A stretch of DNA of 64,000 bases from Octopus sinensis. Taxonomy: Eukaryota. The stretch is from positions 152,520,001 to 152,584,000 of the forward strand of contig NC_042997.1 in the NCBI RefSeq assembly GCF_006345805.1, given 5' to 3'. This document shows positions 18,338 through 60,100 of this stretch, one piece after another; position 1 is the first letter of the stretch; every line of letters starts with the position of its first letter. Under the pieces are notes generated by a model. That model worked only from the letters and a program-made list of their open reading frames with translations, was not told where the DNA came from and did not search any database. Made by a program: the position numbers and the translations under genes.

Positions 18338-18713
18338 TGGAAGCGCAATGGCCCAGTGGTTAGGGTAGCAGACTCAGGTCGTAGGATCGCGGTTTCGATT
18401 CCCAAACCGGGCGTTGTGAGTGTTTATTGAGCGAAAGCGCCAAAAATTCCACGAGGCTCGGCAGGGGATCGTGGTGAACCCTGCTGTACTCTTTCACCAC
18501 TGCTTTCTCTCACTCTTTCTTCCTGTTTCTGTTGTACCTGTATTTCAAAGGGCCAGCCTTGTTACACTCTGTATCACGCTGAATCTCCTCGAGAACCACG
18601 TTAAGGGTACACGTGTTTGCGGAGTGCTCAGTCACTTTCACGTTAATTTCACGAGCAGGCTGTTCCGTTGATCAGATCAACTGGAGCCCTCGTCGTAAAC
18701 GACGGAGTGCTAC
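18338..18713 (+). mobile_element. tRNA-derived SINE (third family)
   Basis: tRNA-like head TGGCCCAGTGGTTAGGG..GGTTTCGATTCCC. Its 3' part recurs on the minus strand at about 55505-55665. Confidence 0.8.
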
Positions 18714-53503: not shown

Positions 53504-55043
53504 AATATATATATATATGTATATATATGTATATATATGTATATAAGAATGTGTGTGTGTAAGTGTGTGTGTGTATAAAAGATATTCAGATAATCGATAT
53601 CTTGCTAATCACACTCAGAAATTTCCAGTCAAATACTGAGATTTATCTGCGGAAACAAAATCAAATTGAATGTGTTGATTAAGTAAGGCTGTATATAATA
53701 AATTATCTATCAAGTAGTTGTGAAACTCAAATATTAATTAAATGATATTATTAAATTTGTATTTATAAAACATATCAATATTCGTAAAAAAACCCAATTT
53801 ATTGCTATATTTTTGTGAAAAAAGAATGAATAACGGATATAAATTAAGATCAAATTAAATTAGAAAGAAGAAATATTGTTATATGTAAACAAAAATATGA
53901 TAAATTTAAGATAAGCGCTCACGCACACATAGGTATATTAATATATATATTTGTGTATGCAGACTTGAACACATCACAAACTCACTTACGCAAACACATG
54001 CATACAAATTTACCCTTAAATGAGAAAATGTCTAACAATTGGTAAATTCTTATTATCTCTGCGTGTGTGTGTAATTGTGCGTACGAGTGTGTGTTTGTGA
54101 GAGCCAAAGAGAGAGAGGGAGAGAAAAATTGAGCATGTGTGGGTTGGAATATGTTCGTGTATATATCTACGTGTTTAAATTATACATGCAAGAAAGGGTG
54201 GTGTATATATAATAACAATAATACGCGCGCGCGTGTGTGTATGTGTGTGTGCGTTTGTGTGTGTCTGTGTGTGTTTGTGTGTGTGTATCTGCATATATGC
54301 TTATACACATACACGCACGAGTGCGAAGTATACCGACTTGGAGAAAGAAGAAAAAAGAGCATATAATTGATGAGGTCGCCAATGGCAACGAAAAGACTAA
54401 CAAACCAGCTGATTGATTTATTGAACGACTAATCATCTAATCAGTTAATTGCTTAGCAATTTGATTAATAATGGTAGTAATAACCTACCAATATAATCAT
54501 TATATCCCACCTAACCTAGGTGCCTTGTTAGAACACCGAGTACTGCGTTATTAGCCTTGAGAAATCCTCACCTACAGGCGTTTGGTGCATCAAAGCACAC
54601 CCATAGAACGTAGCAGACGAAATTCGTCTTCCGTGAACGCCGGAATTCCCATATTATGTGATATCGCTTTATTTGACCTTATGAATGGGAAGCACCGATC
54701 CCCGAACCCTTTGTGAGCGTATCTGAGTTTATCTTATCGTTTTCCACTTTCTTTTAAGATTGTAGAGTGTGCTTTGAGAGAGAATTTGCTGCTCTTACTA
54801 GCACGTTAAGAGACCACTTTGGATCATATACAGATATACCATACGAAGATAGCATAATTGCACGATCACGTCTACAGTCTTCTACTACGGCCCGAACCTA
54901 TAGCAGAAGACACTTGCCCAAGGTGCCACGCAGTGGGACTGAATCCAGAACCATGTGATTGGTAAGCAAGTTACTTACCACACAGCCACTCCTGCGCCTA
55001 TATATATGTATATATAATTTAAAACTCGCTAAGAAGGTTTTGA

Positions 55044-55095: not shown

Positions 55096-55704
55096 ATTCA
55101 TATGTTAAATTTTAATTTATATAAATTATTTTATGTATTGGCTTAAGTCTTTCTTTGTTTGATTTGCATAATAGTGGTTTTGTCTCTAATTTGATATAAT
55201 ATAATATTTTACTATAAAATTGGATTCAATCTTAAATCTGATTTTTCCATGTAAATTTGGATTTATTCCCTAATATTTATTATTATATATATATAGTATT
55301 TTGATTATAAACACATGTATAATACTTATGATATGTATAATATTTTGATATATGTATAGATATATAAATAACGTAATACGATATTCTTATGTTGTAAATC
55401 TATTATATAATATATCCAACACTAAATGACAGCTAATCAACTCTACGAAATTTGAAATAGGGCTGATCATTAAAATCTTACATTGTAAGTTTAAGTATAA
55501 CATTAAGTGGCACTCCGTCGGTTATGACGACGCGAGTTCCAGTTAATCCGATCAACGGAACAGTTTGTTCGTGAAATGAACGAGTAAGTGACTGAGCACT
55601 CTATAGACACTTTCCTTCAACGTAGTGCTCAGGGAGATTCGGCGTAACGCAGAATGTGACACGCTGAATATATATATGTGTATCTATATGTGTATACACT
55701 TTAC

Positions 55705-57015
55705 TCAAGTAGTGTGGAGCGACTGACCTCCCTTGTTCGAAGGTTATATGGATACAGTTTGTGTATCAAATAGCTAACTTAAGGCGATGGCCTCATGGAG
55801 CTAATAAGCGGACAGCTTTATTCTTGTTTTTATAAGAGTGCCATATTGGTATGGCGATAACTATTAATTTCCAGGAACGCTGCCGTGTTCTCTTTTAGAG
55901 AGACTTAGTAATTTTAATATTTCTATTATTGAAAACAAGTGGATGTATTCCACCGAAACTAGGTAAATAAAACCTTCGAACAGAGATAGTCGGAAGCGAC
56001 ACCTGCTGGTCTGACTGCACTGCATTGACAAGGGGCAATGCCCCGAAGCGCGTCTGTGGCTGTCGATCAAGTAGTGTGGAGCGACTGACCTCCCTTGTTC
56101 GAAGGTTATATGGATACAGTTTGTGTATCAAATAGCTAACTTAAGGCGATGGCCTCATGGAGCTAATAAACGGACAGCTTTATTCTTGTTTTTATAAGAG
56201 TGCCATATTGGTATGGCGATAACTATTAATTTCCAGGAACGCTGCCGTGTTCTCTTTTAGAGAGACTTAGTAATTTTAATATTTCTATTATTGAAAACAA
56301 GTGGATGTATTCCACCGAAACTAGGTAAATAAAACCTTCGAACAGAGATAGTCGGAAGCGACACCTGCTGGTCTGACTGCGCTGCATTGACAAGGGGCAA
56401 TGCGCCGAAGCGCGTCTGTGGCTGTCGATCAAGTAGTGTGGAGCGACTGACCTCCCTTGTTCGAAGGTTATATGGATACAGTTTGTGTATCAAATAGCTA
56501 ACTTAAGGCGATGGCCTCATGGAGCTAATAAGCGGACAACTTTATTCTTGTTTTTATAAGAGTGCCATATTGGTATGGCGATAACTATTAATTTCCAGGA
56601 ACGCTGCCGTGTTCTCTTTTAGAGAGACTTAGTAATTTTAATGTTTCTATTATTGAAAACAAGTGGATGTATTCCACCGAAACTAGGTAAATAAAACCTT
56701 CGAACAGAGATAGTCGGAAGCGACACCTGCTGGTCTGACTGCGCTGCATTGACAAGGGGCAATGCGCCGAAGCGCGTCTGTGGCTGTCGATCAAGTAGTG
56801 TGGAGCGACTGACCTCCCTTGTTCGAAGGTTATATGGATACAGTTTGTGTATCAAATAGCTAACTTAAGGCGATGGCCTCATGGAGCTAATAAACGGACA
56901 GCTTTATTCTTGTTTTTATAAGAGTGCCATATTGGTATGGCGATAACTATTAATTTCCAGGAACGCTGCCGTGTTCTCTTTTAGAGAGACTTAGTAATTT
57001 TAATATTTCTATTAT
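55705..57015 (+). repeat. Tandem array of a 362-bp unit (3.6 copies) with hammerhead-like motifs; retrozyme-like
   Basis: Units start at 55705, 56067, 56429 and 56791 with only a few substitutions between them; the array ends in (TA)n. Confidence 0.92.
56019..56060 (+). ncRNA. Variant minimal hammerhead motif (also at +362 and +724)
   Basis: CTGCA-TTGACAA-GGGGC aat GCCCC-GAAG-CGCG-TC-TGTGG. U3-A8 core, with G at position 15.1. Confidence 0.6.
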
Positions 57016-57018
57016 ATA

Positions 57019-57049
<31 letters not shown>

Positions 57050-57118
57050 CATACATACATACATATATATATATATTATATATATAATATATATATATAC
57101 GTACATACATACATATAT

Positions 57119-57177
<59 letters not shown>

Positions 57178-60100
57178 CATATGCTTATATTAACATCTGA
57201 TTTCCACTTAGTACGCTCGTATACGTATATGTACGTAAATTACATTTACAAGTAGGTGCACGAACAAAGTAACGAGAACGGAATGCATCTAATAAAATAA
57301 ATATATAATCGTTAAATCTTTTAACTTTTCCATTACTTTACGTTTCACGTCGGAGAGACATTCTTCAGCTGGAATATCACCAAAGAATGTTTTCCAAAAA
57401 GGAAATTTGTGCTGCTGGTCTGTTTTGTGATATCGCATATTATAAACTTAAAGTTAGCGGAATTAGTTTCTATTTCGGTGTTTTAATATACAAAGTAGAC
57501 CACATCAAAGTAGTAGTGTTTCGACAATATCTTCTACATTTTGTTTTAAATTATGGCTTAATGATCACTGCCATGTGTTTCTAATTTCGATATCCCTACA
57601 GATCATCACTACGGGTCACCTTGGGTAGACGTATTCCACAACAGCTCCGGGTACTGATGATGTACAAGTATAATTTAGTAGAGGGAAACTGCGGAAACTT
57701 GTGCATGTTTTGGATTTCAAATTAAGTATTAGATGGTGCACAAGATTCATGAGACAGTATGATGGTATAGGATTCTGACAGAGAAAGAAGATTGCATAAA
57801 ATCTATCTGGTAACCTTTATGATAACCTATTAGCGTTTCACAAATTTGTAAGCAGAAATCGGTAGAATAAAGGTTATAGGTTATCACATTTTTATAATCA
57901 TGATCGAAAATCTTAAATTTGTCATGTCAGGGAAATAAACCGCGAACCAAATACGAGAGAAAACTGTAATGGAGGATATTAAGGGATAAGAGAAGATCAA
58001 GTTTACTTTAAATCTTTCTTGTATAGTAAAGGGTGTTAAATTAAAAGACATTTTAATGAGAAAAACAATGCTAAAGGTAGCATTTCCAAAAGCAGTTGCT
58101 GTACACATACAAACACAACCTTAGATGAATTAAAGTGTCTGTGAATAATGAAAGCTTGGAATATACAACATAGGTAACGACAAAAGAATAGTTTGTTCGC
58201 TGGTCTGGAATCAGTTTAAATTAAATCTGGTGAAGAGTATTGTTGAACATGTCCGATTACAAACCATTGAATTGTAGTAAATTCTGGCCAACGAAGTATT
58301 TTGCGAACATTACATATTGAAATCAATAATCGTTTCAGGACAAAGCGACAATAAATAGAGCAACTTGATGTAAGCATATGCGAAAGTGGAGGGGACGCAA
58401 GCTCCATTATTACATCTGGTCTGTGAACAGATAGTTAATTTATAGGAGGAAAGAAGAGGCAACATTATCAAATCATTCAAGAAATTTGAAAAGGAATTCA
58501 TTGAATGTTGCAAAGGACGCATATATTTACATAGGATGATGATGATGATAGTGATTTTGTTGTTGTTTCTTCTCTTGTTGTTCTTGATGATGGTGGTTGT
58601 GGTGGTGGTGGTGTTGTTTGTGATGTACAACCCATAATTACGGGGAGAAAAAGTGAAGAATATCTGCACGACAATATCTTTCACCCTTACGATAATGAAA
58701 GTTTATGTAGTACTGAAGATGATGAACAAAGTGATTTTGGAGGATTTTAACGATCCTTTACGTTTGTAATGCTTCAGATTTCCTATATTATTGCAGTTTA
58801 AAACCACATTAATTTTCTATTTCAGTTTCCTATACATAAATATAACTTCCAAATTCATTTTCATTCTCCGTATTTATCATGGCCGTGGCCATAAGCTGCA
58901 TTGAATCACCAAATTAGAAATAGTAGTTCACCATAGGTACACAGTGCTATGGTGAGTGTGGCTTCAAATAAAATAATCCATCAAAGAATTGCGATTGTAA
59001 CAGCAATGATTATTCAGTATATACATAGAAATACACAACCTATTATATAAATAAGGCCTTGTAACATTTATGAATATTTACACCAAGCCTAAGTATTTAG
59101 AAGAGATACAGGGCTATATTTGCTGAGTAGGATATGCGTTTTGATACGTATACTGAATAATTATTTACATTTATTGCAATAATTCATTTTATTTCATTTC
59201 CATTAATCATTGAAAAGATTATTTGGGTTTCTGTACTGTATATATCCGTTGGTTTCTAATATGAATTTCAGCCCTTCAAAAATATTAACCTTATAAAAGC
59301 TGGTCTGCGAAATTTAGCCAAAATAGCTGTTATACAAGAGAAACGAGATTTATAAATGTATATATAGTCTATATATATATAGTTGGCTGTCAACTTGTGT
59401 ATGAGAAGTTTAAGCAGTGACTGAAAGTAATCAACAATGTCTGTGGAGAATTTTAAGACTAAGTCTATGGAAAGAAACTTTAGATACTTGCCATCTTATT
59501 AGCAATACAAAGAACAAACCGAGACAAAAAAATTTCGTGCCAATAAAAAACGTATTCCCGGGAGTAAGAGAGATTCAGCTGAGAAAGAAGATGACCAAAT
59601 GACTTACAAAATTCTCACTTCAACAAGGTTTATATCACAGAAAGACCTTACATTTACTTAGTGATATTGTTTAACAAAAGTTAGAAGATGGCTCACTGTC
59701 ACTGGCTTTTCAAAGCACAGAAGCCAACCTAGAATTCCGAAACGCCGGCGCTGTTGCAAGATAGTCAATGCCCATAGGCTGCGTTCATGCTTCCTTTTCA
59801 TATAAATGGGTCTAGTCCTCCTAGGGTCTTGCGATCCTCATGAGAGGGCTAACCTCATCGGTATAGTTATATGATCAAGTTACATGCAACAGGTTGTACT
59901 GGATTATTTGGATTACACGTAGGCTGGAGCTCTCACAGTCGACCTGATATACATCCATATATATGTGTGTGTGTGTGTGTGTGCTTGCACACAAGCATAG
60001 GAATATCCGGTTTCCCGGTTTCTCTGGCGCACATATTCCTGCCTGGAGGGGATGCCGGTCCGTGGCAAAATTACTCATTTTTACCAGCTGAGTGGACTGC

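What the first reader, a model, noticed from the sequence alone, without database searches (positions are those of the whole stretch)
55705..57015. 362-nt tandem unit with a non-canonical hammerhead and a rod-like fold: candidate retrozyme / circular-RNA retroelement
Seen: 3.6 near-identical 362-bp units. Each full unit carries stem I-TTGACAA-GGGGC/GCCCC-GAAG-CGCG-TC-stem I, with predicted cleavage after 56054, 56416 and 56778. The unit is strongly self-complementary. TGTTCGAAGGTT (55734-55745) pairs perfectly with AACCTTCGAACA (55971-55982), extended by CTC/GAG and CGACT/AGTCG. Local hairpins include GATACA/TGTATC, GCCATA/TATGGC and GTGGA/TCCAC. Established: hammerhead C3-G8 is a tertiary pair that tolerates the U3-A8 swap, and metazoan non-LTR retrozymes are tandem units of a few hundred nt with one type I hammerhead each, processed to circular RNAs. 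Minimal hammerheads with palindromic stem III cleave as dimers, which a tandem transcript allows. Inference: this is such an element, invisible to CUGANGA/GAAA pattern searches. Caveats: G15.1 replaces the conserved A, and units 2-3 have a stem II mismatch (GCGCC), so these copies may be inactive.
Basis: partly seen in the sequence, partly recalled or inferred. Interest (0 to 1): 0.9.

Follow-up and report, generated by a model that had tools for sequence, protein, structure and literature searches.

The report
RNA-edited ribozyme repeat copied into DNA
This is one copy of a mobile, self-cutting RNA repeat of a known kind, but it carries the same nine A-to-G changes in every repeat, which looks like one enzyme-edited RNA circle being copied round and round into the genome.

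Summary
There are 3.6 units of 362 bp, each full unit with a U3-A8 type I hammerhead fold. The fold is branched, not a rod. The array belongs to a dispersed family: 1458 exact core matches, A15.1 changed at only 2 of 121 sites, compensatory stem changes. It is a non-LTR retrozyme, a known class, and U3-A8 is a published Penelope variant.

Two things are new. (1) The window's defects are not random. All nine changes shared by its units are A>G on the ribozyme strand, with U or A as 5' neighbour. They look like ADAR edits that were reverse-transcribed into DNA and repeated on every lap. A targeted search found a second array with 20 A>G changes, 13 shared between laps. (2) Most insertions are two divergent arms in (TA)n. 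One arm starts at unit position ~162, the other at ~225 (81 sites; 2 with like ends), with matching haplotypes. This suggests twin priming by a Penelope-type enzyme. A young Neptune-type element with the same U3-A8 core exists in this genome.

Cleavage, circles and the partner are not shown; DNA-level homogenisation remains a rival.

The parts
55705..57015 (+). Single-arm insertion of the retrozyme family: 3 full 362-nt units plus unit positions 1-225. Unit position = window coordinate minus 55704, modulo 362.
56013..56064 (+). Type I hammerhead, unit 1 (distal stem I, stem I, U3-A8 core, 4-bp stem II, palindromic stem III). It carries A>G at 56017, 56022, 56040, 56048 (A15.1) and 56058. Predicted cut after 56054; probably inactive.
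56375..56426 (+). Hammerhead, unit 2: the same A>G changes plus C>G in stem II. Predicted cut after 56416. Its MFE is a different fold.
56737..56788 (+). Hammerhead, unit 3: as unit 2. Predicted cut after 56778.
55826..55848 (+). Three A>G changes (unit positions 122, 134, 144), present in all four laps (also 56188-56210, 56550-56572, 56912-56934).
56005..56005 (+). A>G at unit position 301, in all three full units (also 56367, 56729). G is a common allele here in another subfamily.
55734..55982 (+). Basal helix of the predicted circle: 55734-55745 pairs with 55971-55982, extended outward. Repeated in each unit.
57009..57015 (+). Site B: CTATTA motif at the family's 3' end near unit position 225; inferred start of target-primed reverse transcription for this insertion.
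56947..56952 (+). Site A: second CTATTA motif (unit positions 157-162), where the family's other arm ends. Not used at this single-arm insertion.
57013..57182 (.). (TA)n tract abutting the 3' end; the family's usual target.

Best explanation
The array is one insertion of a non-autonomous, Penelope-mobilised non-LTR retrozyme. Steps: (1) Tandem loci are transcribed (inferred). (2) The U3-A8 hammerheads cut after GUC, probably as dimers through the palindromic stem III, and a ligase closes 362-nt circles (inferred from the known class). (3) A Penelope-type RT-endonuclease nicks both strands of a (TA)n target and primes at two internal CUAUUA sites about 63 nt apart, one per strand. This gives two divergent, 5'-truncated arms from one template (architecture and shared haplotype shown; enzyme inferred). 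(4) For this insertion the template had first been A-to-I edited by ADAR at about nine sites. RT ran at least 1.6 and up to 3.6 times round it, so every lap carries the same A>G changes, including A15.1, and the genomic copy is probably a dead ribozyme (spectrum shown; ADAR and circle inferred). My odds: retrozyme family 0.93; Penelope-type mobilisation 0.85; ADAR origin of the A>G cluster 0.88; circular template read repeatedly, given editing, 0.65.
For: Family and core: 1458 exact core matches, control 0. Among about 121 sites, A8 changed at 0, A15.1 at 2 and N7 at 36. Compensatory pairs occur in distal stem I, stem I and stem II (3 of 15 pairs; 9 hand-picked rows), and a sister family has a changed but still palindromic stem III.

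Architecture: 168 of 179 and 68 of 77 arms end at one of two sites. 58 of 65 and 23 of 29 two-arm sites have one end of each kind, and only 2 have like ends. Flanks are 94-95% AT. The two arms agree at 974 of 986 polymorphic calls, against 0.67 when permuted (max 0.755). In 31 of 81 sites neither arm lies inside the other. This fits PLE inverted arms, tail and (TA)n bias (PMC8557442, passages) and two internal RT starts on both strands (PMC11167929, parts 1-2 of 4). A Neptune-type PLE with intact 781-aa ORFs carries the same U3-A8 core and ends in (TA)n.

Editing: against a natural copy identical to its subfamily majority (L004), all 9 of 9 changes shared by the window's units are A>G. A>G makes up only 19 of 275 single-copy changes. 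The 5' neighbours are U 7, A 2, as ADAR prefers. A targeted search found L251, with 20 A>G, 13 shared between laps. L063 has 5. Rare variants shared by both arms are 5 of 14 A>G and 0 T>C. One contig from a guessed-RNA run shows a dense A>G cluster over the ribozyme.
Against: No cleavage, RNA or circle was observed.

Family-wide there is no A>G bias outside the window (39 A>G vs 43 T>C), so editing is episodic: 3 clusters among 135 surveyed sites plus the targeted fetches. 5 of the 6 other sites were not hyper-edited. Three of the nine window changes (301, 313, 318) are common alleles in other subfamilies, leaving six strictly private. Three of the edited As are wholly unpaired in the predicted circle and a fourth mostly, so the duplex partner is unexplained.

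Edited sites recur between loci (all 5 of L063's are in L251), so site preference alone can make separate units look alike. DNA-level shuffling of units occurs (period-4 pattern in L071; mosaic differences in the window).

The pile-up of arm 5' ends at the cut site (14 vs 3.3 expected) did not replicate (2 vs 1.2) and ties with other hot spots.

The candidate PLE shares only the ribozyme core with the unit. The 25 copies of its 3' end that I mapped were picked by likeness to one end and show no second start site. The run X7 evidence is one contig of depth 7.7 from another species, RNA only by guess, with no matched DNA.
Confidence: 0.62

Rival explanations
1. Same family and same ADAR origin, but the template was a linear, uncleaved multimeric transcript. 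One unit was edited and its changes were spread over the array afterwards by gene conversion or unequal crossover, or they were inherited from an already edited parent locus.
For: All nine changes fit in one contiguous stretch of a unit (122-354). The window shows mosaic post-insertion differences and L071 a period-4 pattern. About 90% of at-risk passes read through the cut site, as either a circle or an uncleaved multimer allows. In vitro, uncleaved RNA is the main PLE template (PMC11167929). L251 laps differ at three A positions, which independent editing could partly give.
Against: The first unit and the terminal partial unit both carry 122, 134 and 144 and none of L251's 16 edits in that region. 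Simple unequal crossover leaves the end units unchanged. No sibling locus with the window's pattern turned up. A G-versus-T difference at one A in L251 fits ambiguous reading of inosine (PMC10877575 section 6), not differential editing.
Confidence: 0.27
2. The A>G cluster comes from something other than ADAR: an RT error bias, ordinary decay, recombination with a G-rich subfamily, or an assembly artefact.
For: 301G, 313G and 318G occur in other subfamilies. Indels in homopolymers suggest read errors in some loci.
Against: Six private changes are all A>G against a 6.9% background (0.069^6 x 135 sites is about 1.5e-5, my arithmetic). There is an independent 20-change cluster. The 5' neighbour is U or A at 24 of 27 distinct positions, p 0.004. 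No T>C cluster above 3 was seen in 135 sites.
Confidence: 0.07
3. The repeat is a DNA satellite or foldback element spread by DNA mechanisms, and the hammerhead is a non-functional relic of a Penelope terminal repeat.
For: No RNA is on record, and the Rfam models do not match. Only 1 of 9 predicted Xenopus retrozymes cleaved in vitro (bioRxiv 10.64898/2026.07.22.740005).
Against: Fixed 3' ends, random 5' truncation and (TA)n targets. The core is conserved except N7, with covariation. Strand-specific A>G marks require an RNA stage.
Confidence: 0.04

Closest known systems
Metazoan non-LTR retrozymes (coral, mussel, axolotl; PMC7229834, parts 2-4 of 6 read)
   Same: Tandem units of a few hundred bp (mussel 350-390), one type I hammerhead each, GC under 50%, highly self-paired predicted circle, thousands of copies, PLEs in the same genome.
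   Different: U3-A8 core. Two-arm inverted insertions with two fixed ends. Genomic copies with clustered A>G changes repeated per lap. The paper proposes rolling-circle RT and mentions RNA editing only as one possible cause of circle heterogeneity. Circles are not shown here. Its supplement could not be read and may list related families.
Vertebrate retrozymes as non-autonomous PLE derivatives (bioRxiv 10.64898/2026.07.22.740005, parts 1-3 of 5 read; supplements closed)
   Same: Co-occurrence with PLEs and proposed use of PLE machinery.
   Different: That study rests on co-occurrence and pLTR homology and used canonical and minimal descriptors. Here the evidence is insertion anatomy, and no pLTR homology beyond the ribozyme core was found.
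U3-A8 minimal hammerheads of Schistosoma Cercyon PLEs (PMC4209133, parts 1-2 of 4 read)
   Same: The same core swap; palindromic stem III; dimer model.
   Different: There they are mostly single, heterogeneous motifs of PLEs. Here the motif has canonical 6-bp and 4-bp helices and sits in a young tandem retrozyme family.
Poseidon PLE of Anolis in vitro (PMC11167929) and Neptune/Naiad insertion anatomy (PMC8557442, passages)
   Same: Both strands cut and extended, two internal RT starts that define a tail, AT-rich or (TA)n targets, inverted 5'-truncated copy.
   Different: The tail here is about 63 nt rather than 30-40, the element is non-coding, and the two starts are used one per arm almost without exception. 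The Anolis paper saw no strand difference and no homology at the start site, whereas both sites here end in TATTA next to (TA)n.
ADAR hyper-editing of repeats (PMC4365171, passages); APOBEC DNA editing of retroelements (recalled; title seen in a reference list)
   Same: Clustered A>G with G depleted one base upstream.
   Different: Here the marks are in the genome assembly itself. The 3' G enrichment is not seen in the window (2 of 9).

Membership tests
non-LTR retrozyme | Tandem units of about 150-450 bp, dispersed in many copies | tested here: met
   362-bp units; 135 sites mapped; 1458 core matches
non-LTR retrozyme | One type I hammerhead per unit | tested here: met
   Intact in the family; damaged in the window's own units
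non-LTR retrozyme | Non-coding, GC below 50% | tested here: met
   145 of 362 G+C; no ORF of 120 aa or more over the array; no tRNA gene. PBS and PPT were not searched.
non-LTR retrozyme | Self-cleavage of monomer or dimer | not testable with these tools
   Only indirect: arm 5' ends at the cut, not replicated
non-LTR retrozyme | Accumulates as unit-length circular RNA | not testable with these tools
   Only contigs were available; laps with identical edits are indirect support
type I hammerhead ribozyme | Conserved core with a 3-8 pair, GAAA, A15.1-U16.1, H17; N7 free | tested here: met
   Family: U3 changed 3 of 122, A8 0 of 121, A15.1 2 of 121, N7 36 of 121 (columns beside gaps left out)
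type I hammerhead ribozyme | Helices I and II supported by covariation | tested here: met
   3 of 15 pairs change on both sides, none or one in slid controls; 9 related, hand-picked rows
type I hammerhead ribozyme | A15.1 and intact stems in the window's own copies | tested here: not met
   G15.1 in 3 of 3 units, weakened stem I, stem II mismatch in 2 of 3
PLE-mobilised element | Inverted 5'-truncated arm, tail between two ends, microsatellite target | tested here: met
   the window's own insertion has only one arm
PLE-mobilised element | Autonomous PLE present in the genome | tested here: met
   RT plus C-terminal GIY-YIG ORFs of 775-883 aa, with a CX4CXXC linker in L184
PLE-mobilised element | Sequence homology to the pLTR of an autonomous PLE | tested here: inconclusive
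   Only the U3-A8 core and palindrome are shared, in 33 stretches taken from 147 GIY-YIG matches out of 5029 candidates
viroid-like rod RNA | Unbranched rod fold | tested here: not met
   Branched MFE in both families
ADAR hyper-edited sequence | Clustered, strand-specific A>G with 5' G depleted | tested here: met
ADAR hyper-edited sequence | Seen in RNA, absent from matched DNA, ADAR-dependent | tested here: inconclusive
   One contig of a guessed-RNA run of another species, no matched DNA

The most novel reading that the evidence does not exclude
These arrays are genomic records of single RNA molecules. A dimeric Penelope enzyme primes both target strands at two fixed sites on one retrozyme circle and rolls round it, and where ADAR had edited that circle the edits are written into germline DNA once per lap. 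That would be direct genomic evidence for the long-proposed rolling-circle reverse transcription of retrozymes. It would also show A-to-I editing acting as a heritable, ribozyme-killing mutagen of a mobile element, with dimeric circles (L063) arising where one ribozyme is dead.
Probability: 0.5. Interest if true: 0.8.

Novelty: new variant of a known kind. Interest (0 to 1): 0.64.

Why it matters
How animal retrozymes enter the genome is proposed but not shown. The papers I read offer rolling-circle reverse transcription and a Penelope partner as models (PMC7229834, PMC7761336, PMC4209133). This young family gives a stereotyped insertion anatomy in over a hundred sites, a concrete candidate enzyme with intact ORFs, two mapped start sites and natural edit 'barcodes'. 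Together these make circle versus linear template, and one- versus two-template priming, directly testable. It also suggests that RNA editing can be fixed in animal DNA through retrotransposition, and that U3-A8 families are missed by standard hammerhead searches. My searches (listings and abstract starts only) showed no report of edited genomic retrozyme copies or of this family. The library lacks most subscription papers and I could not see two key supplements, so this is not proof of absence.

Tried and rejected
Rfam scan: no hammerhead match among 98 hits. ARAGORN: no tRNA head. Rod-like fold: rejected, the fold is branched, and z-scores do not favour the plus strand.

Cut-site pile-up of arm 5' ends as proof of cleavage in vivo: strong in the discovery set, not replicated in the C1 set or family 2, and tied with other windows; kept as a hint only. 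One search's first count had an arm-joining artefact, corrected.

Family-wide A>G bias: seen with the window included (48 vs 25), absent without it in the larger set (39 vs 43). The 77G versus 76C test was swamped by a third subfamily (289 matches; control 1 match). The two non-clustered 77G sites I checked carry that change in all copies but no cluster.

Snap-back copying as the only source of the second arm: rejected, because in 31 of 81 sites neither arm contains the other; it may explain some of the 7 of 81 with matching 5' ends. L063 as proof of a dimeric circle: not accepted, since unequal crossover explains it too. L161's long gap is a LINE-like insertion, not a partner ORF. The retrozyme next to the PLE in L191 is a separate convergent insertion in the same TA tract.

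Expression: no RNA holder listed, and all four runs laid were contigs, so they show nothing on ends, strand or circles. Earlier findings of the scan: none returned. One paper on dimeric PLE hammerheads was not held.

Full report
Coordinates: unit position = window coordinate minus 55704, modulo 362. The genome has 2.72 Gb in 13516 contigs. Size, chromosome-scale contigs and TA-rich DNA recall an octopus (recalled, not tested).

1. Observation. The array, motifs and predicted cut sites are as described. The units differ at five positions. Circular folding beats dinucleotide shuffles on both strands (z -3.8 to -6.6), but the fold is a basal helix plus a multibranch, not a rod. Rfam has no hammerhead match here.

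2. The family. A search of the genome with unit 1 gave 164 matches from 40 scored of 2101 candidates. A 24-nt core pattern has 1458 exact matches, the reversed control 0, and the first 100 listed all have A8. I mapped 91 sites (discovery set: best matches plus a pattern near position 174-192) and 44 further C1 sites picked by the core pattern (test set). Family copies have a perfect 6-bp stem I with a distal 3-bp helix, U3-U4-G5-A6-N7-A8-A9, a 4-bp stem II, GAAA and a self-complementary six-base stem III. Across about 121 sites A8 never changes, A15.1 changes twice and N7 36 times. A sister family is identical at 310 of 356 aligned positions (30 sites). It has compensatory changes in stems I and II and a different palindrome. 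Of the changed pairs in the predicted circle, 5 are compensatory, 5 tolerated and 7 broken. On nine hand-picked rows, 3 of 15 ribozyme pairs change on both sides; the rows are related, so this is support, not a probability. U3-A8 is known from Schistosoma Cercyon PLEs, and short palindromic helix III implies dimers (PMC4209133, parts 1-2 of 4).

3. Insertion anatomy. Arms end, at their 3' side, near position 162 (site A) or 225 (site B): 168 of 179 and 68 of 77 arms. Both sites carry CTATTA and abut AT-rich DNA (94-95% AT; 68 of 86 and 66 of 82 flanks are TA-repeat-like). Of sites with two divergent arms, 58 of 65 and 23 of 29 have one A end and one B end; A+A and B+B occur once each. The arms of a site share alleles at 974 of 986 polymorphic calls over 103 sites, against 0.67 (max 0.755) in 1000 permutations. 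In 31 of 81 A+B sites neither arm is contained in the other, and junctions mostly overlap by a few bases. I infer two priming events on one template, one per target strand. This matches PLE inverted arms, tails and (TA)n bias (PMC8557442, passages). It also matches the in vitro finding that a PLE protein cuts and extends both strands from two internal starts and is predicted to be a dimer (PMC11167929, parts 1-2 of 4). 80 of 178 and 46 of 77 arms exceed one unit, so the template usually continues across the cut site. Arm 5' ends at the cut were enriched in the discovery set (14 vs 3.3) but not in the independent sets (2 vs 1.2), and other windows score as high.

4. Candidate partner. A GIY-YIG search gave 147 matches from 150 scored of 5029 candidates. 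[quoted passage not shown] Its 3' end holds a U3-A8 hammerhead with the same core and palindrome as the sister retrozyme family, and it ends in (TA)n. No other likeness to the unit was found in 33 stretches, and the 25 copies mapped, picked by likeness to that end, show no second start. It is a candidate, not a shown partner.

5. The A>G signature. L004:1501-1862 is identical to the majority of the window's subfamily. The window's units share nine differences from it, all A>G on the ribozyme strand: 122, 134, 144, 301, 313, 318, 336, 344 (A15.1) and 354. The first three are in all four laps, the others in all three full units. A>G is 19 of 275 single-copy changes. Three of the nine are common alleles in other subfamilies. 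The six private ones alone give about 1.5e-5 after allowing for 135 sites (my arithmetic). The 5' neighbour is U seven times and A twice (p 0.008 and 0.018); ADAR sites lack G upstream (PMC4365171, passages). I then predicted further clusters. Forcing G at 336 found five other sites and forcing G at 354 found one. One of these six, L251, has 20 A>G against two other private changes, and 13 are shared between its laps over 1-225. Its laps differ at three As, one read G in one lap and T in the other, as inosine can be read (PMC10877575, abstract and section 6). L063 has five, on alternating units, one type of which has a broken A15.1. Over 27 distinct positions the 5' base is U or A at 24 (p 0.004). 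Rare variants shared by both arms are 5 of 14 A>G and 0 T>C (p 0.002). In guessed-RNA run X7 one contig (depth 7.7) shows A>G at 3, 4, 7 and 18 and a loose end that I read by eye as A>G at five more ribozyme As. The run has 15 A>G against 6 T>C places, while X1 has 6 against 7. Against this: outside the window the family shows no bias (39 vs 43), and some edited As are unpaired in the predicted circle. A long duplex with antisense RNA, which the inverted loci could supply, may be the substrate (inference).

6. Mechanism. Shown: family, core conservation, anatomy, haplotype sharing, A>G spectrum. Inferred: transcription, dimeric cleavage, ligation, the PLE enzyme, ADAR and the circle. The argument for a circle is that the window's pattern is molecule-specific (none of L251's 16 edits in 1-225) yet identical in the first unit and the terminal partial unit, which simple unequal crossover leaves untouched. 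No sibling locus was found. An edit at A15.1 also suggests editing after cleavage. The A15-U16 pair is listed among the necessary core in PMC7151607 (one passage), and that I15.1 shifts cleavage specificity is recalled. The main rival is a linear template plus later homogenisation. DNA-level shuffling is visible in L071 and in the window's own mosaic differences, and recurrent hot spots weaken L251 as evidence. The window's ribozymes fold worse than the intact copy (-10.6 and -9.9 vs -15.6 kcal/mol) and are probably dead.

7. Relation to what is known. It works like, and on every testable feature is, a non-LTR retrozyme (PMC7229834, parts 2-4 of 6). A PLE origin for these is argued in bioRxiv 10.64898/2026.07.22.740005 (parts 1-3 of 5), and rolling-circle RT is given as a model in PMC7761336 (passages) and PMC6765202 (passages). 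The two defining experimental features, cleavage and circles, could not be tested. In the search listings I found no report of this family, of the one-end-per-arm rule or of edited genomic retrozyme copies. The supplement of PMC7229834 was unreadable, one file of PMC4209133 was not searched, and preprint supplements are closed; any of these may bear on novelty.

8. Verdict. A new variant of a known kind. The class is ordinary; the per-lap editing marks and the twin-arm rule are the interesting parts. Interest 0.64.

Noticed in passing
L251:1460-2131 (G000:C6, 73.62 Mb): Second hyper-edited array. Two of its changes fall in the site A motif, and the insertion has only a site B arm. All three clustered sites (window, L251, L063) are single-arm site B insertions, a class that is 10 of 91 discovery sites; post hoc.
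   Followed up: partly
L063:1354-2903: Alternating X/Y units (period 724) with different A>G sets; X has a broken A15.1. Either a dimeric circle or DNA duplication.
   Followed up: partly
L071:1995-5487: Ten-unit arm with a period-4 pattern of variants, showing higher-order repeats in this family.
   Followed up: no
L184:2221-5541 and L182-L194: Young Neptune-type Penelope family with many intact 781-aa ORFs and a U3-A8 hammerhead near its 3' end. L182 and L185 also have a 479-aa open frame upstream with no convincing Pfam match. A second PLE family (L188, 775 aa) has a canonical core.
   Followed up: partly
L191:5241-5794, L195-L224: Sister retrozyme family (360 nt, 87% identical, 2658 candidates) with the same two end sites and compensatory ribozyme changes. 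A third subfamily dominated, and copies 84-92% alike occur.
   Followed up: partly
unit positions 24-38 and 185-193 (window 55728-55742, 55889-55897): Other hot spots of arm 5' truncation, as strong as the cut site; possibly RT stops at helix ends.
   Followed up: no
window 55507-55661 and 54888-55000: Two dispersed SINE-like repeats upstream of the array. The first recurs at 18560-18713 (minus strand, 77%), the second six more times in the window. Either could supply read-through transcription.
   Followed up: no
L161:2100-7450: A LINE-like element (endonuclease- and RT-like frames, read by eye) is inserted in a retrozyme arm at position 304, with about 25 bp duplicated; L150 also breaks at 304.
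   Followed up: no
runs X1-X20: The unit is held by runs of five coded organisms, so the family is shared among relatives.
   Followed up: partly
window 55734-55745 and 55971-55982: The GTTCGAA core of the basal helix resembles a Pol III B box (recalled consensus); no convincing A box by eye.
   Followed up: no
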